Part shown: piece by piece, positions 36,341 to 54,593 of the stretch
How positions within the stretch are numbered: the stretch's first letter is position 1
How the letters are laid out: each line of letters opens with the position of its first letter
Origin: Coriobacteriaceae bacterium
GTDB taxonomy: Bacteria > Actinomycetota > Coriobacteriia > Coriobacteriales > UMGS124
Direction of reading: 5' to 3'
NCBI GenBank assembly: GCA_019421015.1
Contig: JAHZGC010000002.1
Location: 156,436-220,435, forward strand
Length of the DNA stretch: 64,000 bases
Notes under the pieces: model-generated
Told to the model about the DNA's origin: nothing
What the model saw: only the letters and a program-made list of their open reading frames with translations
The model's database searches: none
Program-made: the position numbers and the translations under genes

Positions 36341-36495
36341 GCACCTCGGAGCTGCGCCTCGGGACCGGCATCCAGGCCTTGGCGTTTGGCGTCGGCGTCC
36401 GATTCGAGTGCCGGGCGCCACCGTTTGGGATTGGCGTATCCGAGCCTTGGCAATCGGGGTCCGCGGGCCGGTCCAAGCATAAAGCCGTAGCGACA

Positions 36496-36542
36496 CCCCG
36501 GCCCTCCCTTGCAGGGAGAGAGGGCCGGGGTATCTTGTTGTG
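36496..36542 (+). terminator. Intrinsic terminator candidate downstream of the BlaR1-like gene
   Basis: An 11-bp stem CCCCGGCCCTC / GAGGGCCGGGG (36496-36506 and 36520-36530) is followed by TATCTTGTTGTG. Confidence 0.5.
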
Positions 36543-36649
36543 TCGATACCGTGCCCGGGCACAGAGGGTTTCTCCCCAGCGGTCTATTCATTTACCATGG
36601 AGGGTTGCATTGGCATAGCTGAGTACGTATTCACAGGAGCAACCATTTT

Positions 36650-37963: not shown

Positions 37964-37990
37964 GGGCTGCGTGCGACGCGGGGCGGGGCC

Positions 37991-38150
37991 GGCGGTTTGC
38001 GTGCGACCGGCGGTTTGCGTGCCAAAACGGGGCCGCTGTGTACGCTCGGAAGCGTCAAAACTGGGGCGCCGTGCACGATTTAGGGGAGAAAATCGCGCAC
38101 GGCGGGGTGGTTTTGGCAAGTTCACGCGTACACAGCGGGGTGGTTTTGGC
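37991..38150. repeat. Composite palindromic element (family A): two direct and two inverted GCCAAAAC-N5-CGCTGTGTACGC units
   Basis: The units lie at 38021-38045 (+), 38054-38078 (+), 38093-38117 (inverted) and 38125-38150 (inverted). They are preceded by the tandem ggcggtttgcgtgc x2 (37991 and 38009). The element lies between convergent genes. Confidence 0.85.
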
Positions 38151-38173
38151 ATGCATATTCGACGCGCACACGA

Positions 38174-39523
38174 CTACTCAGCCTCATGCACCAACGCAAT
38201 CAGCTCCTCGCGCGACGAGATGCCCAGCTTCTGGTAGATGTTGTGCCTGTGGTACTTGGCGGTACTTTCGGATATGTGGAGCTGCGTGGCGATGGGCTTG
38301 AGGGGAAAGCCCTTGGCGAGCAAGACAAACACCTCCCTTTCGGTTTCGGTCAGACCGACGTTGCGGGCCAAGGCGTCGAGGGGGTCAGGAATCCCCTGGT
38401 CAGATATGATTGAAGGGACGGATGCAGCGGGTGCCTGTGGCCTGTGGGCCAAGCTCGTCTTGATAAATGCCGCCACAAAAATGGCCGCCATGAGCACCAG
38501 GGCAATGGCGCACCCGATGTTTTGGGGGATCACAAGGGCCAACAGGTTGGCCACCATGGTAACGAAGTAGACGGCTGCCCATCCACGCAGGGCAAACCGG
38601 TAGGTCATCGGGGCGCGGGCAAACCAGCCGAGGGCACTCAAAAACAATATCCAGTAGCCTGCATACATGCAGTTGATAAGGGTGGCCGGAGCCTGGTCAA
38701 AAACCAGGGCACAGCCCATCAAAACGCAGATGACCAGCGAGAGCAGGGCAAAGGGGATCTTGAGCTGGGGCAGTCCAACCAGCACGAGAAGTGCCAGGCA
38801 CGCAAGGGACGAGGCCGCCATGAGGGGAACGCCGGAGCCGAGGCCTACCGGAGCGTTGAACGAGACGATGCCGCTTGCAAAGCAGCAGAGCACGAAAGCC
38901 CCGCCCAGTAGAGGATTCTTAACGGGCGAGCCGCCGTTGCCTCCACGGCTCACGACAGCCTGGCCCTCCTGCAGCGCGGGACCCCGGAACCATCCCATGA
39001 TAAGGACTGCGAGCACGGGCAGAATCAGCGATAGCGCCAGCACGCCGATGCCGGTCGCGTCCGCAACCATGAGCGACGCAGCATAGGCAAGCGATGAGGC
39101 TCCAAAGAGCATCAGGAGCATGCGCAGCAGATCAGTCCTATACACCTCAAGCCACGTCGCCAATAGCAGCCCCTGGGCCGCCCCCAGCAAAACGCCTCCC
39201 GCAATGGGCTGCCAAGCAGTACTAAACACGCTGCCATAGGCGCACAGAATGCCAAGCACCATGGGAACGACAGCGCCCTTACCGGGGAGGGCCTTCTTTT
39301 TCGGGGGCTTATCTGCAGGCGACCTTCTCCAAAACGCAACGGCGACCAGCACCGCGGCTATGGCCGTTTGGATGGCGATAGGATACAGCGAACCCGTGAC
39401 CACCTCGGTGCCAAACACATGTGGCCCCGAGTTCCAACCGAGCATCGCCCAGAAAAAGACGAGCCCTAAGCTCAAGCCGCCTGAAAACGTAATCGAAATA
39501 CGTTTGCCTACGGTGTCGATCAT
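38174..39523 (-). CDS. Multi-TM LuxR-family transcriptional regulator
   Basis: The N-terminal region is hydrophobic and the HTH is LTETEREVFVLLAKGFPLKPIATQLHISESTAKYHRHNIYQKL. The start is MIDTVGK at 39523. It is a close paralog of 43453..44832. Confidence 0.85.
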   Translation of the reverse strand: MIDTVGKRISITFSGGLSLGLVFFWAMLGWNSGPHVFGTEVVTGSLYPIAIQTAIAAVLVAVAFWRRSPADKPPKKKALPGKGAVVPMVLGILCAYGSVFSTAWQPIAGGVLLGAAQGLLLATWLEVYRTDLLRMLLMLFGASSLAYAASLMVADATGIGVLALSLILPVLAVLIMGWFRGPALQEGQAVVSRGGNGGSPVKNPLLGGAFVLCCFASGIVSFNAPVGLGSGVPLMAASSLACLALLVLVGLPQLKIPFALLSLVICVLMGCALVFDQAPATLINCMYAGYWILFLSALGWFARAPMTYRFALRGWAAVYFVTMVANLLALVIPQNIGCAIALVLMAAIFVAAFIKTSLAHRPQAPAASVPSIISDQGIPDPLDALARNVGLTETEREVFVLLAKGFPLKPIATQLHISESTAKYHRHNIYQKLGISSREELIALVHEAE

Positions 39524-39714
39524 ACTGCCCCTTTGCCCTTGGTGCCATACGGCTGCACCGAAGTATACAGCGGGGAAGAACGTAGGATCGCGGGCGGCGC
39601 AGGGCGAGGTGCCGGCCGACATGGTGGGTGTCGCCCGGCACCTCGGGGGGATGTCGAGGGGATGTCCGGCCTGTGGGGTCTATCGGTTGGCAGCCAACCG
39701 CCGCACCAAGCCCG

Positions 39715-41451
39715 TTACTCCCAAGGCTGCAGGGTCGCGATGTGGTTGGCGGCCACGTAGCCCACTACAAAACCGTTCACGATGGCGGTGCCGCCGATGG
39801 CATAGGCGCGGCCCATAGGGCTGGCGATGCAGTTGGAGGCGGCGTAGAGGCGCGGGATGACCTGGCCGCGCACGTTCTTGACCTGGGCGTTGCCGTTGAT
39901 CTCCATGCCGCCAGAGGTCGAGAGCATGCCGGGATAGAGCTCCACACAGTAGTAGGGGCCCTCCTCCGCAAGCGGGGCCATAGAGGGGTTCTTGAGCTCG
40001 CCCGACTCCACGCGGCTCACGTCGCCGGCGGTGTACATGTCCCAAGTGGCCTCGCCGCGGCACCAGTCCTTGTCGACACCCTCCTCGCACATGGCGTTCC
40101 AGCGTTCGACGGTGTGGAGCAGGTTCTTCTTGTCGATGCCCATGCCGTCGGCCAGGTCCTCCATGGTTTCGAAGGTATGGACCCACTCGGGGAACTCGCC
40201 GCTCTCGACCATGGACGCGAGCGTGGGAGTCGCGTTGCCAAAATTGCCGTCGAAGGTACTGTCGACAATCACATAGCCGGGGATGTTGCGCCATTCACGG
40301 CGCCCGGTATCGTAGGCGTCCCAAGCGCGACCAAACAGATCGTAACTAGCGCCCTCGCACACAAAGCGCTCGCCATGACGGTTCACGATGATGCTGCCCA
40401 CGTGGCCGGGAGTGATCCAGATGGGGTTCTGTTGTTCGGAGTTGGTCAGGCCATTGTCGAGATCCAGGTTGCACGACACGTAGCGGTCGGGCTCACCCGC
40501 CATGTTGAAGCAGTGGTTAAAGACCTCGTTCATGTTGCGCATGTTGGCGCCGAGCTCCATGGCCATGATGTGGCCGTCGCCGGTGTTGGTGGGCACGCAG
40601 CAGCTGGTGTAGATGGGGTGGTTGATGTAGTGCTGCACCATCTCGCGGTTGTGGTCAAAGCCGCCGGTGCCCAGGACCACCGCGTAGCGGGCCTTGATGG
40701 CGATGGGCTCGCCCTCGGGGGTCTCGGCCCATACGCCGATGACCTCGCCGTCGCCCAGGGCTGGGTTGCCGGCGTAGATGAGCTTGGTGGCCGGGGTGCC
40801 CATGAGCACCTCGATGCCGCGGGCGTCGACGGCGTCCTTGGAGAAGGCCTGGATGGCGCGGCCCATGAACGTGCCCGTGGGCTCGTGCATGCCGATGAAC
40901 ACGCTCACGCCGGTGTCGGAGTACTCGTCGGTGATCGGGGTGCCCGGGTAGTAGAAGTTGTAGGACTTTCCGGGCGACGGCTCGGCGGAGGTCCAGTTGT
41001 AGTCGCACTCGTTGTTCAAGAAGTCCACGGCGGCCGGGCAGTTGTCGATCATCATGTCGATAAGCTCTTCGCTCGACTGGCCCTCGGCCACGTCCATGAG
41101 GTAGTCCTTGAGCATATCGCGGGGAATCTCGCGGTTGCCGAGCTCCAGGGCGCGAGTGGCGTTGGGGCACATCATGCCGCCGCCGCACAGGGCGGTCGAG
41201 CCGCCGAACCAGGTGGGGTGCTTCTCGAGCACCAGCACGTCGAGACCTGCGTCATGGGCACGCAGGGCCGCCGAGATGACCGAGCCTGAGCCAACGACCA
41301 CGACGTCGGTCTCGCGGTCCCACTTCTCGGGCATCCAGGGCTGGGCAGCCTGGCTTTCGTCGGCCACGGCGGTGCCTGCAACGGCAAGGGCGGCTGCGCC
41401 TGCGGCCAGTCCGGCACCCTGTACGAACGAGCGGCGGTTGAGCTGTTCCAT
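39715..41451 (-). CDS. Tat-exported FAD-dependent oxidoreductase (KstD/fumarate reductase-like)
   Basis: The Tat signal is MEQLNRRSFVQGAGLAAGAAALAVAG, the FAD fold is DVVVVGSGSV, and the C-terminal region is RLYAASNC. The start at 41451 has AAGGGGAG upstream. Confidence 0.9.
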   Translation of the reverse strand: MEQLNRRSFVQGAGLAAGAAALAVAGTAVADESQAAQPWMPEKWDRETDVVVVGSGSVISAALRAHDAGLDVLVLEKHPTWFGGSTALCGGGMMCPNATRALELGNREIPRDMLKDYLMDVAEGQSSEELIDMMIDNCPAAVDFLNNECDYNWTSAEPSPGKSYNFYYPGTPITDEYSDTGVSVFIGMHEPTGTFMGRAIQAFSKDAVDARGIEVLMGTPATKLIYAGNPALGDGEVIGVWAETPEGEPIAIKARYAVVLGTGGFDHNREMVQHYINHPIYTSCCVPTNTGDGHIMAMELGANMRNMNEVFNHCFNMAGEPDRYVSCNLDLDNGLTNSEQQNPIWITPGHVGSIIVNRHGERFVCEGASYDLFGRAWDAYDTGRREWRNIPGYVIVDSTFDGNFGNATPTLASMVESGEFPEWVHTFETMEDLADGMGIDKKNLLHTVERWNAMCEEGVDKDWCRGEATWDMYTAGDVSRVESGELKNPSMAPLAEEGPYYCVELYPGMLSTSGGMEINGNAQVKNVRGQVIPRLYAASNCIASPMGRAYAIGGTAIVNGFVVGYVAANHIATLQPWE

Positions 41452-41714
41452 GGTGTTCTCCCCTTTGCTTGTGGGGCGGCTGCTTGGCGGCCTCCCCGCT
41501 GGTCGTGTGTTCCCGGCGTGGCGTCGGGCTGGCACCATCATGGCGGGCGGGGAGGGGGAGCGCCCGAACTGCAAAGGGCAATTCTGCGGTGGGGGTCGTT
41601 GGCTTTTTTGGGTAGCAAAAATGGTGGGACGAAGTTGAGAATACCGCTAGGTACCTGGGGTTTTGGACGTTTTGGCTAGGTGGTTTTAAGGGTTGGGAGC
41701 GAGCTGGTCCCGCA

Positions 41715-41808
41715 GGCAGTTGCGTGCGGGCGGCAGGCGGATGCGCGCCAAAGCGGGGCCGCTGTGTACGCTCGGAAGCGCCAAAACCACCCCGCCGTGT
41801 ACGCTCGA
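41715..41808. repeat. Family A composite element, left part (interrupted by IS3)
   Basis: gccaaagcggggccgctgtgtacgc (41747-41771), then tcggaagc, then gccaaaaccaccccgccgtgtacgc (41780-41804). These are collinear with units 1-2 of the 38021 and 50275 copies. Confidence 0.8.
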
Positions 41809-43314
41809 GGGGGTGCGGACGCTTTCTTGGACGGCCTAGACGACCAGCCAGAGCCGCTTCCTGCGGCCCCCTATCGTGTCGCACGCGGTCCCGCCGCCCT
41901 CGCGGAAGGCCTTGAGGCGCCCCTCCCGGTACCAGGCTATGTACGAGGCGAGCTCGGCGGCGAAGCGCTCGGCGGTCCAGCCCGACCAGTCGCGCCCCCG
42001 GAAGAACTCGACCTTGAGCCTGCCGAAGAACCCCTCGCAGGCGGCGTTGTCGGGGGAGTGCCCCTTGCGCGACATCGACCTCACGAGCCCCAGGGCGGCG
42101 CAGGCCCCGACCCAGTCGGGCGTGCGGCAGCGCCGCCCCCTGTCGGAGTGGAGCACGCAGCCGCGCCGCGCGGCCGCCGCGACGCCCCCGAGCATCTCGG
42201 CGACGAGGGCCTTGGAGGGGCTCAGCCCCACGGAGAAGGCGGCCACGTCCCCGCCGAAGGGGTCGACCGCCGCCGACAGGTAGACCTTCCTCGGGTCGTC
42301 GGGGGAGGCGGAACTCCGTGGCGTCGGTGGCGATCACCTCGCCGGGCCGGGGCGCCGAGAAGTCGTGCAGGTCGCGCCCCTCGTCGACGAGCAGGAGGTT
42401 CGGGGCGCAGCGCAGGCCCTCCTCGCCGGCGTAGGAGCTGTAGGGCCGGGCCGCCGAGGCCGAGGAGCGGGCGGCCCGGCCCCTCCTCGCGCACGACGCG
42501 CCTCACCACCTTCTCCGAGACGACGACCGGCCGCGACGGGTCGAGCGAGGCCGCCCCGCGGGCGCGCCGGGGCTCCCCGGGGCCCGAGCGCAGGTCGGAC
42601 CACACGCGCCTGGGGCCGCAGGCCCCTCCCGAGGCCCCGAAGGAGGCGCGGACGAGCGGCCGGGGCGCCGCGTAGGGGTCGGGGGCCGAGGAGGCCGCCG
42701 CGCCGTAGTAGAAGGTGCTCCTCGGCAGGGAGAGCGCCCCGAGCACCCTAGCCAGCCCGAACCTGCCCCCCAGGGACGCCGCCAGCGCCGCCCTCTCCGC
42801 CGCCGTCAGGGCGGAAGGGTCGGCGCCGGGGTCTTTTTTTAGTATCTCGACCGTCCCGGCCAGGATCGCGTTCTCCAGCTCCAGCTCCTCGCAGCGCCGC
42901 CTGAGCGCCTCCAGCTCCGCGGGCGGCCCGGCGGGCTCGGGCGAGCGGACCCTCGCGTCCTCGTCGCTCATCAGCGCCAGCTCCCCCTCCTCGGCCAGCC
43001 GGCGCGCCCAGCCCCTGACGGCCGCGGCGCTCACGCCGCCCTCGGACGCCAGGTCCTCCGCGCGCTCGCCGGCCGGGAGGCGGGCGGCCAGGCCCCTCTT
43101 CCCGTCGTAGGGCAAGTATGCTGGCTCCTTGCGGGAGGCGTGGCCGGCGGCCCAGTGGCCCACCGTCGTCCGGGCGCACCCGACCAGCCCGGCGGCCTCG
43201 GCCTGCGTCCACCCCTCGGAGAGCGCCATCAGGGCGAGCTCCCTGTCTTCCTTAGAGTACATGCGGACTCCCAACCGGACACCTGCCAGTGTCCAACTTT
43301 TTGTCCGCACCCCC
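41809..43314 (-). mobile_element. IS3-family insertion sequence (about 1.5 kb)
   Basis: The imperfect terminal inverted repeats are GGGGGTGCGGAC-N6-TTGGAC (41809-41832) and its complement at 43291-43314. The interior encodes an HTH/leucine-zipper OrfA part and a DDE integrase part. No clear target-site duplication is visible. Confidence 0.8.
41836..43262 (-). pseudogene. IS3-family transposase (OrfAB) with two frame disruptions in the integrase part
   Basis: The first segment is MYSKEDRELALMALSEGW...ENAILAGTVEILKKDPG...VSEKVVRRVVREEG. It shifts near 42473-42484 to ...RPYSSYAGEEGLRCAPNLLLVDEG..VIATDATEFRLP. It shifts again at the G5 run 42301-42305 to ...KVYLSAAVDPFGGDVAAFSVG..HSDRG..SMSRKGHSPDNAACEGFF. 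Confidence 0.75.
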
Positions 43315-43404
43315 GATTGCTGTCAAAAAGGTGCTCGCGTGTACGCTATTTTGACCCCCGCACCGTACACAACGGGGTGGTTTTGGTATGCACGCGCACA
43401 CGCG
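43315..43404. repeat. Family A composite element, right part (after IS3)
   Basis: gtcaaaaaggtgctcgcgtgtacgc (43322-43346) is followed by the inverted unit cgtacacaacggggtggttttgg (43364-43386). The tail tatgcacgcgcacacgcg resembles the tail of the 38150 copy. Confidence 0.75.
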
Positions 43405-43452
43405 TTCACGGGAGGGCGTCCGGGCGCATGGACCGGCGGGGTTCTCGCCCTG

Positions 43453-44832
43453 CTATTCCGCCCTGTTCACTAGCTCGATAAGCTCCTCGCGCGATGAGAT
43501 ACCCAGCTTCTGATAGATATTGCGGCGGTGGTATTTGGCCGAGCTCTCCGAGAAGTGAACCTGTTCGGCGGCCCCCCGCAAGGAGTGGCCTTTGGCCAGG
43601 TAGCCAAGGATCTCGCACTCGGTGTCTGACAACTGATAGCTGTTTGCTATGTGCGCTATGCGGTCCTCTATGGGTGGCAGTGGGGTGCTATCCAAGGACG
43701 TGCCCAACGATGGGGCCTCGGGCTCGCGGGAGATGCTGGCGTCGAGAAACGCGATGACCAGGGCGGCCACCAAAAAGCCCAACGTCACGATGCCGGCCGA
43801 TTGCGCGTCGAGCGACTGCCCAACGGCGTTTGCCACCGCACTCGAGAGGTAGATCATCGCAAAGCCGCGCAGGCAGACGGGGGACATGAAGCCCTCTTGA
43901 GGGCGGACCTTGTCATAGAACCATGCCATCGAGTAGTACATGATCAGCCAGAATCCGGTGCGCGCAAAGCCCAGTGGCCACGCGCCCGTTTGCGGTGCCA
44001 CAAAAGACACGATGATGCAGAGGCAGACAACGGTCACCAGGCCGGAGAACAGGATTTCTCGCCGGGGTAGCCCCAGAAGCAGCAGGACCGATGCCAACGA
44101 CAGCGAGACTATGATCGATACATACGCGGGGACCCCAGTTGTTTGGCTGCTGTATGACACGATGCCGCTTGCGAAGTTGCACAGCAGAAGAGCGACCGTC
44201 TGAATCCAAAACGACCGCCGCGTTGTTAGGGTGCCTGATTGGCCGTAGGGGCTAGGGGGATCCTTGGGGGTCGGGATATCTGCGGTTCCAGCCGCATACG
44301 CGATGAGGCCAAGGAACGGCATGACAGACGACAGAACAAGAGCCGCGCCCCCTCCCAGCGCGCTGCCTTCGCACAAAACGCTGGCGAGGCAGCTTGCCAG
44401 TAGGAGCATCACCAAAAGGTCGGGGCCGTTGCCTCTGTAGCGGCCGAACCATAGGCGGGCAAAGAGGGCAAATCCGACACCGGTTACTCCGCCCGCGCAG
44501 ATGAGCAGGACGTCTACTCCCCATAGGGTGCCCGTGGTTCTAAAGACGATACTCAGGCCGGCGCACACCATGCAGGCCGCCAGAGACGAGGACCTCCTGT
44601 GCAAAAGCGATCTCAGGGGAGGCAGCGAGCACGCCAAGAATGCTAGACCGGCCGTTGCGCGCAGACAGAGCTGTGATGCCTGGCTGCCGGGCATGCTCGC
44701 ACCGATCGACACCCACCCAAAGAAGAGCGCGAGACTCAGCCAGAGTGCATAGGCACGCCTGAGCGACGCTCCGTTCAGGGATATCTCGATGCGCTCCATG
44801 AACCCACTCCGTTCGGCCAACAAATCGGTCAT
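43453..44832 (-). CDS. Multi-TM LuxR-family transcriptional regulator
   Basis: The N-terminal region is hydrophobic and the HTH is LSDTECEILGYLAKGHSLRGAAEQVHFSESSAKYHRRNIYQKLGISSREELIELV. An alternative start is MERIEISL at 44799. Confidence 0.85.
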   Translation of the reverse strand: MTDLLAERSGFMERIEISLNGASLRRAYALWLSLALFFGWVSIGASMPGSQASQLCLRATAGLAFLACSLPPLRSLLHRRSSSLAACMVCAGLSIVFRTTGTLWGVDVLLICAGGVTGVGFALFARLWFGRYRGNGPDLLVMLLLASCLASVLCEGSALGGGAALVLSSVMPFLGLIAYAAGTADIPTPKDPPSPYGQSGTLTTRRSFWIQTVALLLCNFASGIVSYSSQTTGVPAYVSIIVSLSLASVLLLLGLPRREILFSGLVTVVCLCIIVSFVAPQTGAWPLGFARTGFWLIMYYSMAWFYDKVRPQEGFMSPVCLRGFAMIYLSSAVANAVGQSLDAQSAGIVTLGFLVAALVIAFLDASISREPEAPSLGTSLDSTPLPPIEDRIAHIANSYQLSDTECEILGYLAKGHSLRGAAEQVHFSESSAKYHRRNIYQKLGISSREELIELVNRAE

Positions 44833-44906
44833 CAGCTGCTACCTTGCTGCAAAAGTCTTCGGCATCATAGTAACGCAGCCCTTGTTCCACGGGGTTTGCA
44901 ACCGGG

Positions 44907-44922
44907 GGTCAAACCGTTGACC
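44907..44922. promoter_or_regulatory. Dyad GGTCAA-N4-TTGACC in the divergent LuxR/flavoprotein intergenic region
   Basis: The sequence is ggtcaaaccgttgacc, about 75-90 bp upstream of the LuxR start. Its arms resemble those of the 50512-50532 palindrome. Confidence 0.25.
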
Positions 44923-45232
44923 TTTTTGGTTAAACCAGCAGGTAACAAGAGGCTTTTATCAATCTTTCCCGTGTCGCTTTTCTTTATGGGGCAAACTGCG
45001 GTGCACGGTTTTGCCCGAATAATTTGTCCCTTTGGTGCGTGCTTTGACCCGGGGGCCTCGCTCCATGATGGGCTCGGTCGCGGCGAGGCCCACGTATCTG
45101 AGGGTTCCACGCAACGCCGCGACAGTCGGCCGGGAGAACCGATGCGCACGGTGACCCCGGCATTTCCTGGCCTAGGGGCAAGGGCCCGTTCAATTGCTAC
45201 AGCCAATGGCATGTAAAGTAGGAGAGAAAACC

Positions 45233-46804
45233 ATGGAACTCAATCGTCGCTCGCTTGTAAAGACCGCCGCCGCCGCGGGTGGGGCCGCCGTTCTCGCCAG
45301 CCTGGGTGCCGCGAGTGCCCAGGCCTATGAGGCCGCCTCGTGGATGCCCGAGAGCTGGGACGCCGAGGCTGACGCGGTCATCATCGGCTACGGCGCGGCT
45401 GGCTCTGCCGCCGCCATCGACCTGGCCGACCTTGGCTTTACGTCGCTGCTCATCGAGAAGATGGACAAGGAGTATGCCGGCGGCGACTGCTCGGTCTGCG
45501 GCGGCTACCTGACCGACGGCGGCTTTACGCCCGAGGGCTATCGGGTCAGCTCCCTGGCTGGCGTCGACACCGCCTATGCCGAGGCCGTGGTGTCCGTTCT
45601 CAACGACGCCTGCAGCTACCTGGTGGGGCTGGGCGTCCCGCTGCAGGACGGCATCCCCGTGGTTGCCTCGGAGAACGGTGAGCCGTTCGGCCAGGTTCTC
45701 TACCACGTCCTCGAGGCCGCTGTCGAGGAGAGGGCCGACAAGATCACCGTCATGTACGAGACCCCTGGCATCGGCCTGGTGCAGGACCCCGTGACCGGCG
45801 AGGTGCTCGGCGTGGTGGCCGGTTCCAAGGAGGCCCCCATCTACCTTAAGGCCAACCGCGGTGTGGTGGTGGCAAGCGGCAGCTACGAGGCCGACCGTGA
45901 GATGACCAACCGCATCCACATGCCCGGCGTACTCTTCCCCACCATCGGATCGCCCGCCAACACCGGTGACGGCCTCAAGATGCTCATGAAGGCCGGCTGC
46001 AAAGCCCAGAATTTTGGCAAGTGCCTCGAATACGCCTGCATGGGTTCCAAGCAGGGCAGCGAAGAGGTGGATACCGGTCTTGCGTTCCCCAAGAGCATGG
46101 CTGCCGACAACTATATCTTCGTGAACTGCGCGGGCGAGCGTTTCATGAACGAGAAGGCCAACCTCCAGCACTCCAAGAACGACTACATCTTCCAGTGCAC
46201 CCGCTTTGAGGGAGGCCTGGGCTCCGGCATCGACGACACCCGCTACACCAACCTGCCTGCCTTCATCGTGTTCGACGGAGCCCTGCTTGAGGGCGGTCCT
46301 CTTGCCGGCACTCACGGCAACAACAACGGCTGGAACATCCACGGCATTTACAAGTGGAGCGAGGACAACCAGGCCGAGATCGAGAAGGGCTGGATCGTTA
46401 AGGCCGATACGCTGGAGGAGCTGGCCGAGAAGTGCCATGCCACCGATCTGTGGGGCCACGATCTGACCATCGACCCTCAGGGCCTTGCGGCGACCGTCGA
46501 GGCCTACAACGCCGCCGCCGAGGCTGGCGAGGACGCCGAGTTTGGTCGCCCCGCCATGGCGCCGCTGGGCGAGGGCCCCTACTACGCCATGGAGATCGTG
46601 CCCATCACGCTCTACGCCACCGGCGGCGCCGCGCATAACGAGCGCGCCCAAGCCATCGACTGGGCCGACGAGCCCATCGACCGACTCTACGTGGCCGGTC
46701 TTGTGGGTGACCCGTGGTCGCTGCACTCGTCCGCCGTTGTGGGTGCGGTGACCTGGGGCCGCATCGCTGCCGAACAGATTTCGCAGCTGGAGCCGTGGGC
46801 CTAA
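45233..46804 (+). CDS. Tat-exported FAD-dependent oxidoreductase (FAD_binding_2)
   Basis: The Tat signal is MELNRRSLVKTAAAAGGAAVLASLGAASAQA, the FAD fold is DAVIIGYGAAG, and the C-terminal region is RLYVAGLVG. AGGAGAG lies upstream of ATG 45233. Confidence 0.9.
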   Translation: MELNRRSLVKTAAAAGGAAVLASLGAASAQAYEAASWMPESWDAEADAVIIGYGAAGSAAAIDLADLGFTSLLIEKMDKEYAGGDCSVCGGYLTDGGFTPEGYRVSSLAGVDTAYAEAVVSVLNDACSYLVGLGVPLQDGIPVVASENGEPFGQVLYHVLEAAVEERADKITVMYETPGIGLVQDPVTGEVLGVVAGSKEAPIYLKANRGVVVASGSYEADREMTNRIHMPGVLFPTIGSPANTGDGLKMLMKAGCKAQNFGKCLEYACMGSKQGSEEVDTGLAFPKSMAADNYIFVNCAGERFMNEKANLQHSKNDYIFQCTRFEGGLGSGIDDTRYTNLPAFIVFDGALLEGGPLAGTHGNNNGWNIHGIYKWSEDNQAEIEKGWIVKADTLEELAEKCHATDLWGHDLTIDPQGLAATVEAYNAAAEAGEDAEFGRPAMAPLGEGPYYAMEIVPITLYATGGAAHNERAQAIDWADEPIDRLYVAGLVGDPWSLHSSAVVGAVTWGRIAAEQISQLEPWA

Positions 46805-46849
46805 GGCAGGCAAGGCGATAGGGCAAGGACGCGCCAGGTAGGCTGTGGG

Positions 46850-46886
46850 ACGGGGTGGCTCGTGTGCGAGCCGCCCCGTTTGCGTT
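46850..46886 (+). terminator. Intrinsic terminator after the 45233..46804 flavoprotein gene
   Basis: A 13-bp stem ACGGGGTGGCTCG / CGAGCCGCCCCGT (one G-U pair) has loop TGTG and is followed by TTGCGTT. Confidence 0.6.
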
Positions 46887-46932
46887 GGGGGTGACGTGGG
46901 GTGCGACCGCGTGCGATCGGGCGCCGAGCCCG

Positions 46933-47418
46933 CTACACCCCGCGCGTTTTGAGATCTTTAGCGATAGCGTCGAGGTCGGCCTTTTCAAACAGGCCGGTTA
47001 CCTCCTGTTGGCAGTGCACGCCCATCTTCTGGAACACATGGTGGCCATGGGTGTTCACGGTGCCGGCGGATATCATGAGCTCCTCCTGGATGCGGGCAGA
47101 GTTGTGTCCTGCTGCCAGCAACCTAAACACGTCCACCTCACGCTTTGTGAGACCGTAGCACTCGCCAATGAGGGTGCATCGTTTAAGGAAGGGGATTTTG
47201 GCCTGGAGAGCCACTCCCTGCGCGGTGTCTTCGCCCGTGCGAACGGCGCCGGCCACCTTGGTTCCTTCCGCCTCGTCGACCTCGCCATCATCCCAGAGCC
47301 TGTGACTCAGAGCCACAAGGTCGGCCATGGTAAGGATATAGCTCCGCAGGAGCGAAACGGCGACGATCGACAGCGACGACACCACCGTCAGCAGCCAGGG
47401 GTTGTGGCGTAGCCCCAT
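46933..47418 (-). CDS. Short single-TM LuxR-family protein (161 aa), possibly a truncated sensor
   Basis: It has one TM (MGLRHNPWLLTVVSSLSIVAVSLL) and the HTH LTKREVDVFRLLAAGHNSARIQEELMISAGTVNTHGHHVFQKM. The remainder of the 743-aa ORF is antisense to the molybdoenzyme relic. Confidence 0.6.
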   Translation of the reverse strand: MGLRHNPWLLTVVSSLSIVAVSLLRSYILTMADLVALSHRLWDDGEVDEAEGTKVAGAVRTGEDTAQGVALQAKIPFLKRCTLIGECYGLTKREVDVFRLLAAGHNSARIQEELMISAGTVNTHGHHVFQKMGVHCQQEVTGLFEKADLDAIAKDLKTRGV

Positions 47419-47460
47419 AAAGTGGACGGTGCGACCCAGGGCCGTGTCTCCTGCTGAGTT

Positions 47461-48522
47461 ATGCGGTGCAGCGAGGCGATGGCGGCTGCCACAGGGGTCA
47501 TCGCGGGCCTGGGCAATAACCACGGGCAGCGCGTTTGCCGAAGAGCCTACGCGGCCGTGGACAGCGAGGGGACCACGCGCCGGATCCGCACCGTCTGCCG
47601 CGGCTGCGGCAAGATGGAGTGCGGCGTGTGGGTCACGGTGGAGAACGGCCGCGCGGTCAAGATCGAGGGCGACGAGAGCGCCCCGCACACCATGGGCAGC
47701 TGCTGCAACAAGAGCGTCAGCTCTCTGCAGGCCTGCTACCACCCCGACCGCCTGCGCTACCCCATGAAGCGCACCAACCCCAAGGGAGAGGACCCCGGCC
47801 AGGTGCGCATCAGCTGGGACGAGGCGCTCGACCACGCCCAGACGTTCACCAGCATGGACCCGCGCACCACCAACCTGGGCAAGGAGAGCGACATCCACCT
47901 GGCCGTGAAGGGCGACACCGACGCGACCCTGGCCATGTGCGACGTCGTGATCAAGAACGGCCCGTGAAGCGCTGGGCCCACGTGTGCTTCCTGGCGGTCG
48001 ACGACAAGGAGCCCAGCGGCCCCGAGATCCCCTACATCTGGCACGGCCCCAACATGGTGAAGACCACGCTGCTGACCCAGGTCGACCTGCAGGAGGACGG
48101 CAGCCCCTACAAGTACATGGTGTGGGACACCCCCGGTGGCCAGCGCGGCGCCAGCGTGCCCTGCGTGGAGGCTGGCCGAAGCCTGGTATGACCCCACCAT
48201 CGCCGAGGAGCCCTACCGCCGCTACCAGACGGGCTTCCTCAAGAAGAACGTCGACGCAAGCCCCACCGCCTCCAACGTCATCATCGGCTTCAACACCCCC
48301 ACCCAGAAGCAGGAGATCTGGTGCACGATCATGGAATCGTACCACGGCGCCCGGCAGCTCGAAAAGGTGCAGCGCGCCTTTATGGCCGACCACCTGGTAA
48401 AGTGGACGCCCGCCATGACGCGCGGCATGTGTGTGTTCGCCCGCATGGGGCTCTATCTGGCGCTGGCCAACCTCACGGAGGGGTTCCTGCGGGAGGATGC
48501 GAAGTTCCTGGGCGCGAGATAG
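47461..48522 (+). pseudogene. Eroded bis-MGD molybdopterin oxidoreductase (DMSO reductase family), three frame segments with large internal deletions
   Basis: The N-terminal 4Fe-4S Mo/W domain is RTVCRGCGKMECGVWVTVENGRAVKIEGDESAPHTMGSCCNKS..YHPDRLRYPMKR..ISWDEALD. Next comes ..DIHLAVKGDTDATLAM.. and a stop. The sequence continues in two other frames (..IPYIWHGPNMVKT.. and ..NVIIGFNTPTQKQEIWCTIMES..). Only about 1.06 kb remains, and the Tat RR motif is missing. Confidence 0.65.
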
Positions 48523-48545
48523 GGCGGCGGTCGGCCACGAGATAT

Positions 48546-48600
48546 TCGCTTGAGCATGGCGTCTCCCTAGGCTGCACGATGCGCAGAACTTCTTGGATTT
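48546..48600 (-). pseudogene. 5' relic (leader, RBS and first four codons MLKR) of a DUF4143 ATPase paralog
   Basis: On the minus strand it reads ccaagaagttctgcgcatcgtgcagcctagggagacgccATGCTCAAGCGA. This matches the leader and start of the 53217..54578 gene (..gaagttctgcgcatcgtgcaacccagggaggcaccATGCTCAAGCGC). Homology ends at about 48546. Confidence 0.55.
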
Positions 48601-48610
48601 GCCGAGGCAG

Positions 48611-49798
48611 CTAATCGTTTTCCACACCGAGCTCGTCTCGAACAATCTCGCGGATTTCTTGGACGATTGCCTGGGATTGACGCGCCCCCAGTCCACCCGT
48701 CTTTCCGACGGCCACCAGGTCGTCAAGGTCGATGTCCTTGCCCTTGCCGTTGACGGTGGTTGCGCGCTCTCCGTAGGTACCGGCGCTCTCCGTAAGGTCA
48801 TAGGCGGGCGAGAGGTGCCACGATCCATCGTCTTCGTCGTAAAGGTATGAGAAATTCTTTGCATGGTCATCGCGGTTGCCGGCGAACACGTTGAAGCACA
48901 TGAGACGAAAGAGCGCCTCTGTATCGCACGAGCTATGGGTGAGCATGAGCGTGAGCCGCATGAGGATGTCGTAATCGAGGTTCGGGATGCGGTGCGACGT
49001 CTCGAGGAGGCCTCCGGCAGATACCATATGTGTTTTGGTTTCCCCTCCGTCGGCTTGGAGCGGGCGGTCGAATCGCCGTACGCCAAAGTACCCTCCGCAG
49101 ATCTTTGAGGGGAACAGCCTTGTCTCGGGCAGGATAAGACCGCATGTGCGGGCTGCCTTGGCATAGGAGAACTCCTGCTCGCCTATGTTTATCGGGTCGT
49201 ACGACGAAGGGAACTTTACGATCCAGCTGGCCCCGTCGAGAAAAACCAAGGCCTTTGGCCGGGCACCTCCCGACGATCCTCCCAGCGCAAAGAGCGTGTC
49301 CAGCTCGGCGTCGGTCGTGGGCTCGCTCTGCAGCACCTTAGTGCACTCTGCAGCCAGGGCATCGAAGTCGAGGGGGAGCTCCTCGTGGGGAAGGCTGAAT
49401 CGGGGGGCATATTCGAGGGCACCCATGCCGCTCGCTCCCACTATTGCCAGCCGCACGAGGGAACTGACATTACGGGGCTCGATGCCGTTGGCCCGCAGCA
49501 TGCGGTCAACCAGCAGCCTGCCCCATCCGTCAGGAAGGCTGTCATCGAACACGCCGAAGACACCACTGAGCGGCTCGGGTTTGGCGACAGACACCCCTGG
49601 CGTCAGAGGCAGGCTCAGGGGGCTGATAGAAAACCCCTTGGCGAGCCACTCGTTATCGTACTCAAAGGCGAGAGGCCCCTCGGAGGTTGCGGCGAGCTTA
49701 CCCACGGGGCGTCCCTTGTAGGAGACGTCCACGGCGGCAAGACCCAGGTCGAGATCGACGTCCGGTTGAGAGACCTTATCTGCGCGTCCCCTTGGCAT
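48611..49798 (-). CDS. hipA: Type II toxin HipA-family serine/threonine kinase
   Basis: The N-terminal coupling domain is VSYKGRPVGKLA..FEYDNEWL..PLSLPL, the P-loop is GGSSGGARPKALV, the catalytic motif is GNRDDHAKNFS, and SPAYDLT follows. Confidence 0.9.
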   Translation of the reverse strand: MPRGRADKVSQPDVDLDLGLAAVDVSYKGRPVGKLAATSEGPLAFEYDNEWLAKGFSISPLSLPLTPGVSVAKPEPLSGVFGVFDDSLPDGWGRLLVDRMLRANGIEPRNVSSLVRLAIVGASGMGALEYAPRFSLPHEELPLDFDALAAECTKVLQSEPTTDAELDTLFALGGSSGGARPKALVFLDGASWIVKFPSSYDPINIGEQEFSYAKAARTCGLILPETRLFPSKICGGYFGVRRFDRPLQADGGETKTHMVSAGGLLETSHRIPNLDYDILMRLTLMLTHSSCDTEALFRLMCFNVFAGNRDDHAKNFSYLYDEDDGSWHLSPAYDLTESAGTYGERATTVNGKGKDIDLDDLVAVGKTGGLGARQSQAIVQEIREIVRDELGVEND

Positions 49799-50081
49799 CG
49801 GCGATCACCTCCTCGATCGAGGCATACCCCCGCTTGGAGAATAGCCCGTCGAAGTCATCCTCGCAGCCCAAGGCAAAGGCCAGCTTAACAAGCGATTCCA
49901 ACGAGATCTGGTGCTCGCGCTCGAATCGCTTGAGGGATCCCAGGCTCACGCCGGATTTGAGGCTGAGCTCCTGCTGAGAGAGGCGCTGCTCCTTGCGGCG
50001 TTGTCTCATGCGCTGGGCCACACCGGCCAGAACGTCCGGCGGAGTGTGCTGGTTCAGGAGGATGTCGATGGGCGAGGGCAT
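49776..50081 (-). CDS. hipB: XRE-family HTH antitoxin (HipB-like)
   Basis: This 101-aa protein has the HTH_3 core RKEQRLSQQELSLKSGVSLGSLKRFERE. It overlaps the hipA start by 23 nt, and GGAG lies upstream. Confidence 0.85.
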   Translation of the reverse strand: MPSPIDILLNQHTPPDVLAGVAQRMRQRRKEQRLSQQELSLKSGVSLGSLKRFEREHQISLESLVKLAFALGCEDDFDGLFSKRGYASIEEVIADAKGTRR

Positions 50082-50115
50082 GGGTGGGCTCCAGAAGACA
50101 TAAGAGCGAGAGTGG

Positions 50116-50171
50116 TGACTAATATATTAGCTAGTATCTGCTTATATGGCAATAAATGACTAATATATTAG
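50116..50171. promoter_or_regulatory. Two copies of TGACTAATATATTAG (palindromic core CTAATATATTAG), 41 bp apart; putative HipB operators
   Basis: The copies lie at 50116-50130 and 50157-50171, which is 35-90 bp upstream of the hipB start at 50081. The surrounding DNA is AT-rich. Confidence 0.5.
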
Positions 50172-50274
50172 ATTAGGAACGTATTGGGCAGATTGTAGGA
50201 CGGGGTAGCTCAAGCGTGGGCCACCCCCTACGTTGGATGGCACGGGGCGTGTGCGGCCCTGCAAGCAGCCGCAT

Positions 50275-50371
50275 GCCAAAACCAGGCCGCTGTGTACGCT
50301 CGGAGCTGTCAAAACCGGGGCGCTGTGCACGATTTGGAGGAGAACATCGCGCACAGCGGGGTGGTTTTGGC
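50275..50371. repeat. Family A composite element, third full copy (two direct units and one inverted unit)
   Basis: The parts are gccaaaaccaggccgctgtgtacgc (50275-50299), tcggagct, gtcaaaaccggggcgctgtgcacga (50308-50332), tttggaggagaaca, and tcgcgcacagcggggtggttttggc (50347-50371). It is collinear with 38021-38117. Confidence 0.85.
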
Positions 50372-50511
50372 AGCTCCGGCAGGCTCTCTTTGACTTGATT
50401 CTTCGCTTAGCTTGCAGGCTAATATCGAGATGGCGTTGCAAGGCATCTTGGGCTTCGGGCCCGCAGGTAGCAGCGCAGCCTTTGCCGTTAGACTTGAATA
50501 ATTGCCCCTTG

Positions 50512-50532
50512 CGTGTCAACCAGGTTGACACG
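50512..50532. promoter_or_regulatory. Perfect 21-bp palindrome CGTGTCAACC-A-GGTTGACACG upstream of a flavoprotein gene
   Basis: The 10-bp arms are perfect and the right arm contains TTGACA. It lies 56-76 bp upstream of ATG 50588. A MerR-like regulator gene lies downstream in the same orientation. Confidence 0.35.
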
Positions 50533-50587
50533 GTAGCGTCTTCCTTGCGTTGTTGCTAGCCAACAAACTACCAAGGAGGACAAGACT

Positions 50588-52123: not shown

Positions 52124-52154
52124 ACCGTCTGGGCCAATCGGGCTTATGCTGTTG

Positions 52155-52180: not shown

Positions 52181-52198
52181 TGGTAAAGGAGATCGATC

Positions 52199-54578: not shown

Positions 54579-54593
54579 GGTGCCTCCCTGGGT

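What the first reader, a model, noticed from the sequence alone, without database searches (positions are those of the whole stretch)
37991..50371. Composite palindromic element of about 100-130 bp (family A) present three to four times near LuxR/flavoprotein genes
Copies lie at 37991-38150, at 41715-41808 plus 43315-43404 (split by the IS3), and at 50275-50371. They share the collinear layout [GCCAAAAC-N5-CGCTGTGTACGC] TCGGAAGC [GTCAAAAC-N5-CGCYGTGCACGA] TTTRGGRGAGAAMA [inverted unit(s) ...CGGGGTGGTTTTGGC]. The inverted units differ from exact complements in the central 5 nt (GGGGC versus ACCCC), so a hairpin would carry a conserved internal loop. Locations differ: between convergent genes, 290 bp upstream of a flavoprotein gene, and 215 bp upstream of another. 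The element could be a MITE, an RNA element or a regulatory landing pad.
Basis: seen in the sequence. Interest (0 to 1): 0.65.

Follow-up and report, generated by a model that had tools for sequence, protein, structure and literature searches.

The report
Small family of modular palindromic intergenic repeats
The repeat is real: a species-restricted, 100-200 bp hairpin-forming DNA module built from a 22-base unit sits at three places in this window and a fourth in another strain, and it most resembles the ordinary palindromic intergenic repeats of other bacteria (REP/REPIN, ERIC, MITE-like).

Summary
A 22-nt unit, CAAAAC-N5-CGCYGTGYRCG, occurs 10 times in the window against 0.84 expected. All 10 lie in three intergenic elements: E1 37991-38155, E2 41715-41811 plus 43316-43392 (split by an IS), and E3 50271-50379. 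A fourth element, E4, lies in a divergent strain at the junction of a ~10 kb structural variant.

There are two architectures. E1 and E3 are 91% alike and E2 and E4 are 88% alike, but their flanks group differently. All fold into long hairpins on either strand.

The host is an uncultured Eggerthellaceae species. No copy turned up in 185,579 representative genomes, JGI metagenomes, IMG/VR, plasmids, phages or related loci. Genome-wide copy number could not be measured.

E1 and E2 are the same in every contig that covers them. E3 carries a 98-bp internal deletion in 5 of 12 assemblies (the window counted as one). That deletion keeps 21 nt of the element, so it is palindrome-stimulated loss and not a clean empty site.

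No target-site duplication, cognate transposase or Rfam match was found.

The best reading is a low-copy REPIN/ERIC/MITE-like palindromic repeat that forms hairpins at gene 3' ends and is a fragile site. A LuxR operator array remains a weaker rival.

The parts
37991..38020 (+). E1 left extension: two tandem copies of GGCGGTTTGCGTGC, a partial duplication of the 5' flank of unit F1
   Evidence: Sequence read. The motif GGCRG..TGYRYGC occurs in the window only beside E1 and E2, apart from one unrelated hit at 24196.
38017..38155 (+). E1 core, type I. Units: F1 38021-38045, F2 38054-38078, loop 38079-38092, R2 38093-38117, R1 38126-38150. It lies between the MatE stop (37963) and the LuxR1 stop (38174).
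   Evidence: Hairpin -86.8 kcal/mol (+ strand, z -10.7) and -77.4 kcal/mol (- strand, z -12.7). Identical in all 12 loci covering it.
37968..38183 (.). Extended imperfect palindrome around E1 that fills the whole convergent MatE/LuxR1 spacer
   Evidence: Fold of 37964-38190 on the minus strand: -108.2 kcal/mol, z -8.2.
41656..41690 (+). Three GTTTT(GG) half-units at 9-14 bp spacing (starts 41660, 41669, 41683), directly left of E2
   Evidence: The only cluster of three GTTTT within 40 nt in the window; 0.01 expected in Markov shuffles.
41715..41811 (+). E2 left part, type II. Extension repeats 41715-41746, F1 41747-41771, second unit with CACCC centre 41780-41804. It lies ~295 bp upstream of the flavoprotein-1 ATG (41451, minus strand).
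41812..43315 (-). IS3-like insertion (HTH_23 and rve_2 ORFs, 75-80% GC) that interrupts E2. Its ends were read by eye and are good to a few bases.
   Evidence: Pfam. Composition. Inverted ends GGGGGTGCGGAC / GTCCGCACCCCC. Present at this site in every strain contig seen.
43316..43392 (+). E2 right part. Small central palindrome GTCAAAA..GCGTGTACGC..TTTTGAC 43322-43358, and reverse unit 43362-43388. It ends 62 nt before the LuxR2 stop (43453).
50271..50379 (+). E3, type I. F1 50275-50299, F2 50308-50332, loop, R2 50347-50371, then AGCTCCGG, which pairs with the F1-F2 spacer. It lies between the hipB promoter region and the flavoprotein-3 ATG (50588).
50292..50389 (.). 98-bp segment of E3 that is missing in 5 of 12 assemblies (the window counted as one). 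Junction at a CT microhomology (50290-50291 / 50388-50389). The short allele keeps GCATGCCAAAACCAGGCCGCT.
   Evidence: Alignment of 11 alleles; blast of strain loci.
50187..50272 (+). Left flank of E3, homologous to the terminator-like 3' flank of flavoprotein-2 (46837-46924) and to the left flank of E4
   Evidence: 65% over 88 nt, E 3.5e-7; 67% over 70 nt against E4's flank, E 1.8e-5.
46837..46930 (+). Flavoprotein-2 3' flank. Homology with strain L143 stops at ~46898, where L143 continues into E4. The stretch 46898-46930 (GGTGCGACCGCGTGCGATCGG) resembles the extension motif.
   Evidence: The resemblance to the extension is by eye only.
38174..39622 (-). LuxR1 (GerE HTH). Its stop codon lies 19 nt from the E1 core.
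   Evidence: Pfam. Recognition helix SESTAKYHRHNIYQKLG, shared with LuxR2.
43453..44832 (-). LuxR2 (GerE HTH). Its stop codon lies 62 nt from E2.
   Evidence: Pfam.

Best explanation
E1-E4 are members of a small, lineage-restricted family of modular palindromic intergenic repeats. They are of the same general kind as REP/REPIN-BIME, ERIC, BOX and MITE-like elements.

**Structure (shown).** The building block is a 22-nt unit, CAAAAC-N5-CGCYGTGYRCG. It is not itself a palindrome. It is laid down mostly at 33-bp spacing, as two or three forward copies followed by one or two reverse copies. A left extension of 18-21-bp partial repeats precedes the units in E1, E2 and E4. As single strands, DNA or RNA, the arms pair into a 25-60 bp hairpin.

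**Spread (inferred).** Copies arose by occasional copy-and-paste and by recombination or gene conversion between copies within a ~20 kb reductase/LuxR island. The mechanism is unknown. No transposase is linked to the elements.

**Effect (inferred).** Three of the four elements start 19-62 nt after a stop codon, and two of them fill the gap between convergent genes. The most likely effect is therefore a transcript 3'-end, terminator or insulator hairpin.

**Fragility (shown).** At the DNA level the palindrome is a fragile site. It has suffered an internal 98-bp deletion and carries an IS insertion. In one strain it sits at a 10-kb structural-variant junction.
For: - **Real and non-random:** 10 units against 0.84 expected. 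Profile scores are 25-34 bits against 6 bits or less for noise.
- **Strong hairpins on both strands:** z from -4.5 to -12.7.
- **Discrete copied module:** E1 and E3 are 88-91% identical over ~102 bp with sharp borders and unrelated flanks. E2 and E4 are 88% identical.
- **Reticulate history:** the flanks group differently from the cores. E3 and E4 share a terminator-like left flank. E1, E2 and E4 share the extension repeats.
- **Arms co-vary:** CGCCGTG/CACGGCG in E1 against CGCTGTG/CACAGCG in E3. The inner arms read TA/TA in E2 against CG/CA in E4. A strain SNP at 50350 turns an A.C mismatch into an A-T pair.
- **Always intergenic:** E1, E2 and E4 lie directly after stop codons.
- **Recent in this lineage:** absent from orthologous or related loci of relatives.
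- **Fragile:** a 98-bp deletion with its ends 8 and 10 nt from the hairpin base. An IS sits inside E2. E4 lies at an indel junction.
- **Not a known RNA or coding:** no Rfam family and no called ORF over it.
Against: - Copy number outside this region is unknown. About 85 kb of this species was seen, and all four loci lie within one ~20 kb island, so it may not be a dispersed family at all.
- There is no target-site duplication, no clean empty site, and no cognate transposase or RAYT in the window.
- The hairpins are not followed by a canonical U-tract, and the terminator scan finds nothing at the elements.
- E3, and E2 as well, lie upstream of genes, where a terminator is not needed.
- No transcript data could be obtained.
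- G.T and A.C mismatches occur on both strands, so selection at the RNA level is not shown.
- With four elements, covariation is anecdotal.
Confidence: 0.5

Rival explanations
1. Operator or enhancer array. The units are DNA-binding sites for the LuxR1/LuxR2 type of GerE-family regulator. The elements would recruit these regulators next to the reductase genes they control.
For: - LuxR1 and LuxR2 are only 34% identical overall. They nevertheless share an almost identical recognition helix, SES[TS]AKYHR.NIYQKLGISSREELI. It is unlike the other six LuxR genes of the window (59% against 23-40% over the last 70 aa).
- Both have an element next to them.
- E2 and E3 lie 295 and 217 bp upstream of flavoprotein genes.
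- Units are phased at 33 bp, about three helical turns.
- A unique cluster of three GTTTT(GG) half-units flanks E2.
- A compact palindrome, GGCAAAC-TGCG-GTGCAC-G-GTTTTGCC, lies in the LuxR2/flavoprotein-2 divergent spacer at 44988-45016.
- LuxRs with the same helix sit next to flavoprotein-1 orthologues in relatives.
Against: - E1 and E4 lie between convergent 3' ends, where there is no promoter to control.
- E3 is largely deleted in 5 of 12 assemblies (the window counted as one).
- The compact palindrome is not statistically supported: 1 hit against 0.47 expected.
- Relatives that carry the same LuxR subfamily and flavoprotein-1 orthologues have no units.
- The paired arms co-vary, which a binding-site model does not need.
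Confidence: 0.2
2. Passive relics. A single hairpin-rich 3' spacer was carried along by segmental duplications of LuxR/reductase cassettes and then decayed. It is not mobile and has no function.
For: - All four loci lie in one ~20 kb island.
- E1 and E2 both follow paralogous LuxR genes in the same orientation and share flank motifs.
- E3 and E4 share a left flank.
- The region is full of pseudogenes, IS elements and structural variants.
- No copy was found anywhere else.
Against: - The E1-E3 core is 88-91% identical. The flanking genes are 28-34% identical as protein, and the flanks of E1 and E3 are unrelated.
- Cores and flanks give conflicting groupings. That needs copying or conversion of the core independently of its flanks.
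Confidence: 0.2
3. Folded-strand recombination site. The hairpin, with its mismatched centre, is recognised as single-stranded DNA by an HUH (RAYT/IS200-like) or tyrosine (IntI-like) enzyme encoded elsewhere. It would mark the borders of exchangeable LuxR-reductase cassettes.
For: - The 4-nt G-rich core is not inverted between the arms in all type I pairs and in the F1:R pairs of type II.
- Elements lie at cassette borders. E1 is at the break of synteny with relatives. E4 is at a 10-kb indel junction.
- The E3 deletion is asymmetric, as reported for REPIN excision footprints (PMC3116915).
Against: - No such enzyme is encoded in the window.
- The attC core sites RYYYAAC/GTTRRRY are not matched.
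- No variant with E1-E2 or E2-E3 excised or inverted appears in the contigs spanning them.
- The E3 deletion is equally explained by replication slippage across a hairpin at a 2-nt microhomology.
Confidence: 0.07

Closest known systems
REPIN / BIME (REP doublets and clusters mobilised by RAYT transposases; Pseudomonas, Enterobacteria)
   Same: [quoted passage not shown]
- Extragenic, often between convergent genes.
- Unit subtypes that differ by a few bases and sit in opposite orientation, as the Y and Z REPs do in BIMEs.
- Variable unit number, compensatory changes across the stem, and asymmetric deletion footprints (PMC3337134; PMC3116915).
   Different: - The unit here is not itself a palindrome. 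Single units fold no better than shuffles.
- There is no RAYT in the window.
- Only four loci are known, all in one island, against hundreds of dispersed copies for REPINs.
- Units also occur as direct repeats at 33 bp.
ERIC / IRU elements of enterobacteria (from my own knowledge)
   Same: An imperfect palindrome of about 100-130 bp in intergenic, probably transcribed, positions. Copy number is low in some species. Size variants arise by internal deletion or insertion.
   Different: No sequence relation. ERIC is one long palindrome and is not built from phased 22-nt units. It belongs to a different phylum.
MITEs such as Correia/NEMIS elements of Neisseria (from my own knowledge)
   Same: Size of 100-160 bp, terminal inverted arms of about 25-30 bp (TGCCAAAAC...GTTTTGGCA in E1), intergenic position, and hairpin-forming transcripts that can terminate or be processed.
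   Different: No target-site duplication, no clean filled/empty polymorphism and no parent IS with matching ends. The neighbouring IS3-like and IS21 ends are unrelated.
BOX elements of Streptococcus pneumoniae (from my own knowledge)
   Same: Modular build from a few box types with a variable number of the middle box. Intergenic, with stable secondary structure.
   Different: No sequence relation. BOX elements are dispersed in more than 100 copies.
Bidirectional intrinsic terminators
   Same: An A-tract, a GC-rich stem and a T-tract (CAAAAC ... GTTTTG), symmetric, placed between convergent genes just after stop codons.
   Different: Only four T, separated from the stem by a 5-nt mismatched block. 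The stem is far longer than usual. The window's ordinary terminators look different, for example 36498-36545 and 46853-46884. The scan does not call the elements.

Membership tests
REP / REPIN (RAYT-associated) | [quoted passage not shown] | tested here: met
   F/R unit pairs fold into hairpins with z from -4.5 to -12.7. Pair-by-pair listing.
REP / REPIN (RAYT-associated) | Each REP unit is itself a short imperfect palindrome | tested here: not met
   Three single 35-nt units fold at -1.4 to -4.9 kcal/mol, z +0.4 to +0.9; 124-167 of 200 shuffles fold as well.
REP / REPIN (RAYT-associated) | Tens to hundreds of copies dispersed over the extragenic space of the genome | tested here: inconclusive
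   Only ~85 kb of this species could be read, and it holds 4 loci in one ~20 kb island. The exact 18-mer gives only single chance hits in 596 Gb of representative genomes. It is not known whether that collection holds this species.
REP / REPIN (RAYT-associated) | A cognate RAYT (Y1/HUH transposase) gene flanked by the repeats | tested here: inconclusive
   No Y1_Tnp or other HUH hit among 30 window ORFs scanned against Pfam, or in the Pfam labels on gene calls in the strain loci.
MITE (non-autonomous DDE transposon) | Terminal inverted repeats | tested here: met
   E1 has TGCGTGCCAAAACGGGGCCGCTGTGTACGC paired with GCGTACACAGCGGGGTGGTTTTGGCATGCA, with a 4-nt mismatched core.
MITE (non-autonomous DDE transposon) | Target-site duplication flanking each copy | tested here: not met
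   The flanks of E1, E3 and E4 are not direct repeats. The 5-6 nt next to the arms (TGCGT / ATGCA) are similar between copies and inverted, so they are part of the palindrome.
MITE (non-autonomous DDE transposon) | Filled and empty sites with precise borders among strains | tested here: not met
   E1 and E2 are present in all loci covering them. The short E3 allele keeps 21 nt of the element, and its borders do not coincide with the borders of homology.
MITE (non-autonomous DDE transposon) | An autonomous parent element with the same ends | tested here: inconclusive
   The IS3-like and IS21 ends are unrelated. There is no match in plasmids or phages.
Intrinsic (bidirectional) terminator | A GC-rich hairpin shortly after the stop codon | tested here: met
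   E1 lies 19 nt after the LuxR1 stop and 53 nt after the MatE stop. E2 lies 62 nt after the LuxR2 stop. E4 lies ~35 nt after the LysR stop.
Intrinsic (bidirectional) terminator | A U-tract directly following the stem | tested here: not met
   None of the 11 terminator-like sites in 36000-52500 lies within an element's units or forms its hairpin. The two nearest (43230, 43277) lie inside the IS just left of E2's right part. Only GTTTTG is present, 5 nt from the main stem.
Intrinsic (bidirectional) terminator | Transcript 3' ends mapped at the hairpin | not testable with these tools
Integron attC site | Core sites R'' RYYYAAC and R' GTTRRRY at the ends of an imperfect palindrome | tested here: not met
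   The ends read CCAAAAC and GTTTTGG. Positions 1, 3 and 4 of R'' and positions 4 and 5 of R' do not fit (sequence). The consensus is from my own knowledge.
Integron attC site | An array of same-orientation cassettes next to an intI integrase gene | tested here: not met
   No tyrosine recombinase in the window, and the genes around the elements point both ways.
Described RNA families (Rfam 15) | A match to a covariance model | tested here: not met
   No match with E <= 1 in 37000-51500 on either strand.

The most novel reading that the evidence does not exclude
The elements are folded-strand recombination sites, analogous to integron attC sites or REPINs. Their deliberately mismatched G-rich core would be read by an as yet unseen HUH or tyrosine recombinase. 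They would bound exchangeable LuxR-reductase cassettes. This would give Eggerthellaceae a dedicated way to shuffle the sensor/reductase pairs that define their metabolism of drugs and dietary compounds.
Probability: 0.07. Interest if true: 0.75.

Novelty: new member of a known kind. Interest (0 to 1): 0.3.

Why it matters
Eggerthellaceae genomes carry dozens of LuxR-plus-reductase pairs, and how these islands are rearranged and insulated is little studied. I found no paper describing palindromic intergenic repeats in this family.

This small repeat family marks gene 3' ends and rearrangement points in one such island. It is also polymorphic among strains.

If it proves to be a terminator or insulator, or a recombination hot spot, it helps to explain cassette turnover and could serve as a strain marker. 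If it is only a local relic, it is an ordinary by-product of duplication.

Tried and rejected
1. **Copies elsewhere.** The exact 18-mer CAAAACCACCCCGCYGTG gave 45 single hits in unrelated taxa in genome contigs, 53 in metagenome contigs and 4 in viral contigs. None has a second unit nearby, so all are chance. blastn of E1 against plasmids and phages found nothing.
2. **Spurious ORFs as a route to other copies.** A six-frame concatenated translation of E1 against 5.8 billion proteins gave no hit. No ORF is called over the elements even at the known loci, so this says nothing about copy number.
3. **Sampling more of the genome through a multi-copy IS protein.** The 136-aa IS3 ORF is found only at the E2 locus.
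4. **IS21 or IS3 as parent element.** Their ends are unrelated.
5. **Relatives.** Loci with 89% MatE (L052-L054) and with 68-77% flavoprotein-1 orthologues (L108-L111) hold no units.
6. **Integron attC, iteron/origin and CRISPR readings.** Rejected on sequence and context. No intI, Rep or cas gene is present, and the core sites do not fit.
7. **Compact LuxR2/flavoprotein-2 palindrome as an independent operator.** Not significant: 1 hit against 0.47 expected.
8. **GGTTTTG enrichment.** 21 hits against 5 expected, but about half are the units themselves. The rest are as expected for an AT-rich word in AT-richer spacers.
9. **RNA strand from wobble pairs.** G.T and A.C mismatches occur on both strands.
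11. **Literature.** No paper on such repeats in Eggerthellaceae. The 16-bp inversion repeat of E. lenta (PMC13131767) is unrelated.

Full report
**Observation**

The sequence at the reported coordinates is as described. The unit CAAAAC-N5-CGCYGTGYACG, with up to 3 mismatches, occurs 10 times in the 64-kb window. Dinucleotide-preserving shuffles give 0.84, and none of 100 reaches 10.

A profile of the ten units scores them 25-34 bits, and the next best site in the window scores 6 bits. There are therefore no hidden diverged copies.

The ten units make three elements:
- **E1:** core 38017-38155, with a left extension from 37991.
- **E2:** 41715-41811 plus 43316-43392, split by a ~1.5 kb IS3-like insertion.
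- **E3:** 50271-50379.

**Anatomy**

Written in one orientation, the ten units show two conserved blocks flanking a 5-nt centre. The blocks are G[CT]CAAAAC and CGCYGTGYRCG. Successive units start 33 bp apart wherever the sequence is uninterrupted.

Two unit types differ in the centre:
- Alpha has a G-rich centre (GGGGC, TGGGG, CAGGC, CGGGG) and occurs only as a forward unit.
- Beta has a CACCC centre and makes up all reverse units and one forward unit.

The central 4 nt therefore keep the same strand polarity while the rest of the unit is inverted. An alpha:beta hairpin consequently carries a G-rich 4x4 internal loop.

A single unit is not a palindrome. Its folding energy is no better than that of shuffles, z +0.4 to +0.9.

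E1 reads F1(alpha) F2(alpha) loop R2(beta) R1(beta). E3 reads the same but lacks a recognisable R1. E1 and E3 are 88% identical over 38017-38118 / 50271-50372, with sharp borders and unrelated sequence beyond, and 91% over the aligned core.

Left of F1, E1 and E2 carry two tandem copies of an 18-21-nt partial unit, GGCRG(T)TTGCGYGC. In the window this motif occurs only there, apart from one unrelated hit at 24196.

The elements fold into long hairpins on either strand, as RNA or as DNA:
- E1: -86.8 and -77.4 kcal/mol, z -10.7 and -12.7.
- E3: about -63 kcal/mol, z -5.3 and -6.7.

With its flanks, E1 turns the whole MatE/LuxR1 spacer into one imperfect palindrome (-108 kcal/mol, z -8.2).

**Context**

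Pfam gives the following gene map:
- BlaR1-like M56 peptidase, 33176-36340 (+)
- MatE, 36650-37963 (+)
- E1
- LuxR1, 38174-39622 (-)
- flavoprotein-1, 39715-41451 (-)
- E2 with the IS
- LuxR2, 43453-44832 (-)
- flavoprotein-2, 45233-46804 (+)
- a decayed stretch holding a 161-aa GerE remnant and molybdopterin-enzyme fragments
- hipA, 48611-49798 (-), and hipB, 49776-50081 (-)
- E3
- flavoprotein-3, 50588-52123 (+)

Start positions and the decayed stretch come from gene calls in strain contigs.

E1 starts 19 nt after the LuxR1 stop and 53 nt after the MatE stop. E2 ends 62 nt after the LuxR2 stop and lies ~295 bp upstream of flavoprotein-1. E3 lies 217 bp upstream of flavoprotein-3.

Apart from the IS3-like element, no transposase, HUH enzyme or recombinase turned up. 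I scanned 30 window ORFs against Pfam and read the Pfam labels on gene calls in the strain loci.

Rfam has no match with E <= 1. The consensus scan finds no promoter or terminator within any element's units.

**Who carries it**

MatE is at most 60% identical to named Gordonibacter, Raoultibacter and Eggerthella proteins. Its identical copies come only from metagenome assemblies. The host is therefore an uncultured Eggerthellaceae species.

The 18-mer CAAAACCACCCCGCYGTG is present in all three elements. Searched elsewhere it gave only isolated chance matches:
- 45 in 596 Gb of representative genomes
- 53 in JGI metagenomes
- 4 in IMG/VR

None of these has a second unit nearby. Plasmids and phages hold nothing similar.

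Close relatives have unrelated spacers after MatE (89% MatE; L052-L054). Loci with flavoprotein-1 orthologues of 68-77% identity have no units either (L108-L111).

The family is therefore recent and restricted to this species. I could not read the rest of its genome, so the genome-wide copy number remains unknown. About 85 kb of the species was examined in all.

**Strain comparison**

Look-ups with window proteins returned the same region from other assemblies of the species, including a 3.83-Mb contig.

E1 and both halves of E2, with the IS, are identical in all of them.

E3 is polymorphic. Five assemblies have a hipB/flavoprotein-3 spacer that is 98 bp shorter. Six assemblies and the window have the long form.

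The short allele reads GCATGCCAAAACCAGGCCGCT|TTGACTTG. It keeps the first 21 nt of the element. It joins 50291 to 50390 at a CT microhomology, 8 and 10 nt outside the base of the F2/R2 hairpin.

This is an internal deletion of a palindrome. The classic mechanism is slippage across a hairpin (inference). An enzymatic asymmetric excision, like that described for REPINs, is not excluded (PMC3116915). It is not an empty insertion site.

A SNP at 50350 (C in the window and one other assembly, T in five) turns an A.C mismatch of the F2/R2 stem into an A-T pair.

**A fourth element**

A more divergent strain carries three units at L143:14204-14338 (L143, ERZ28757363 contig_7543, ~98% identical in the shared part).

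Read in the other orientation, E4 consists of:
- three extension repeats (GGGGCGGATGYRCG)
- F1(alpha)
- a forward beta unit
- the small palindrome GTCAAAAAGGTGCCCGCGTGTACGCTATTTCGG
- one reverse beta unit

This is the architecture of E2 without the IS, at 88% identity. There are therefore two subtypes, type I (E1, E3) and type II (E2, E4). In type II the forward and reverse beta units pair without an internal loop.

E4 lies between the 3' ends of a LysR gene and a flavoprotein-2-like gene. Relative to the window, about 10 kb (46898-56970) is missing there.

The left flank of E4 is the flavoprotein-2 terminator region. The left flank of E3 (50187-50272) is homologous to it as well (E 3.5e-7 and 1.8e-5).

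Flanks thus group E3 with E4, and E1 with E2. Cores group E1 with E3, and E2 with E4. This conflict means that cores were copied or converted independently of their flanks.

**Pairing evidence**

Arms that pair co-vary between elements:
- CGCCGTG/CACGGCG in E1 against CGCTGTG/CACAGCG in E3.
- GTGTACG/CGTACAC in E2 against GTGCGCG/CGTGCAC in E4.
- The F1-F2 spacer of E3 (TCGGAGCT) is matched by AGCTCCGG after R2, whereas the corresponding E1 spacers do not pair (sequence).

With four elements this is anecdotal. G.T and A.C mismatches occur on both strands, so neither strand is favoured as an RNA.

**Explanation**

The best-supported reading, confidence about 0.5, is a low-copy, lineage-specific member of the broad class of palindromic intergenic repeats. 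The class includes REPIN/BIME, ERIC, BOX and MITE-like elements.

Shown:
- modular build
- hairpin potential
- discrete copied cores
- intergenic position, mostly right after stop codons
- absence from relatives
- fragility (deletion, IS insertion, structural-variant junction)

Inferred:
- It acts as a transcript 3'-end or insulator hairpin.
- It spreads by rare copy-and-paste or conversion.

Weak points are the unknown copy number, the lack of a target-site duplication or a cognate enzyme, the lack of a U-tract, and the lack of expression data.

**Rivals**

*LuxR operator array, about 0.2.* Several points favour it:
- LuxR1 and LuxR2 share a recognition helix that the other LuxR genes of the window lack. 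The same helix is found in LuxRs next to flavoprotein-1 orthologues in relatives.
- The units are phased at 33 bp.
- A unique cluster of three GTTTT(GG) half-units lies at 41660-41683.
- A compact palindrome with the same half-sites lies in the LuxR2/flavoprotein-2 spacer.

Against it, E1 and E4 lie between convergent 3' ends, and E3 is dispensable in many strains. The relatives have no units, and the compact palindrome is not significant.

*Passive relics of segmental duplication, about 0.2.* This fits the clustering in one island. It does not fit 88-91% identical cores beside 28-34% identical genes and unrelated flanks.

*Folded-strand recombination site, about 0.07.* It is suggested by the non-inverted core and the position at cassette borders. 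No enzyme, circle or rearranged variant supports it.

**Comparison and verdict**

The element works most like a REPIN/BIME or an ERIC element. It fails defining features of each family tested:
- **REP:** the unit is not a palindrome.
- **MITE:** there is no target-site duplication or clean empty site.
- **Canonical terminator:** there is no U-tract.
- **attC:** the core sites do not match.

It is a new member of a known kind. It is of moderate-to-low interest unless a whole-genome scan, 3'-end mapping or binding assays show more.

Noticed in passing
window 36341-36480: A ~140-bp stretch directly after the stop codon of the M56 (BlaR1-like) gene is absent in strain contigs L130, L133 and L135. 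Their remaining spacer upstream of MatE is only ~85% identical. It holds repeated CCTTGGC / GTTTGGCG words and is unrelated to the E elements. It may be another small insertion/deletion element.
   Followed up: partly
window 48547-48592 and 54568-54646: A 46-nt repeat (91% identical) spans the start codon and upstream region of the DUF4143/AAA_14 ATPase gene (start 54578). A second copy lies just downstream of hipA. This looks like a remnant of a paralogous gene's 5' end left by a past rearrangement.
   Followed up: no
window 46933-49164: The 743-aa 'LuxR' ORF is not a gene. Strain gene calls show a 161-aa GerE remnant, fragments of a molybdopterin oxidoreductase (Molybdop_Fe4S4), and the hipBA pair overlapping its upstream part.
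   Followed up: partly
window 41812-43315; L050/L136: The IS3-like element in E2 has 75-80% GC against ~62% around it. It has split or degenerate ORFs and sits at this one site in every strain contig that covers it. In one strain an IS21 (IstA/IstB) has inserted into it.
   Followed up: partly
window 46898-56970 versus L143; window ~54729 versus L139, L141, L142, L121, L124, L126: At least three structural variants of this island exist among strains. One has ~10 kb absent, with E4 at the junction (L143). One has a molybdopterin/nitrate-reductase-like operon plus a 536-aa LuxR inserted next to the PF09820 ATPase gene. The third is the window arrangement.
   Followed up: partly
window 38174-38340 and 43453-43620; L108, L109, L110: LuxR1 and LuxR2 share a distinctive recognition helix (I/F)SES(T/S)AKYHR(H/R)N(I/V)YQK. 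The same helix occurs in the LuxR genes next to flavoprotein-1 orthologues in related species. This defines a LuxR subfamily tied to this reductase type.
   Followed up: partly
window 44988-45016: A palindrome, GGCAAAC-TGCG-GTGCAC-G-GTTTTGCC, lies in the divergent LuxR2/flavoprotein-2 spacer and has the same words as the E unit. It is not statistically supported on its own (1 hit against 0.47 expected).
   Followed up: partly
window 10699-10746 and 31727-31774: A 48-nt inverted repeat (83% complementary, CCCGGCAAAACCGAGTCGCAAAGTCCCC...) lies in two distant intergenic regions. It may be another small repeat family.
   Followed up: no
window 96-620 and 55766-56290: A 525-nt inverted repeat (82%) formed by two copies of a PF09820 'predicted AAA-ATPase' gene. 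The copy at the window start is partial.
   Followed up: no
window 26571-27923 and 48611-50081: There are two HipA-type kinase genes in the window. The hipBA pair next to E3 has an AT-rich operator-like region with repeated TAATATATTAG at 50120-50170.
   Followed up: no
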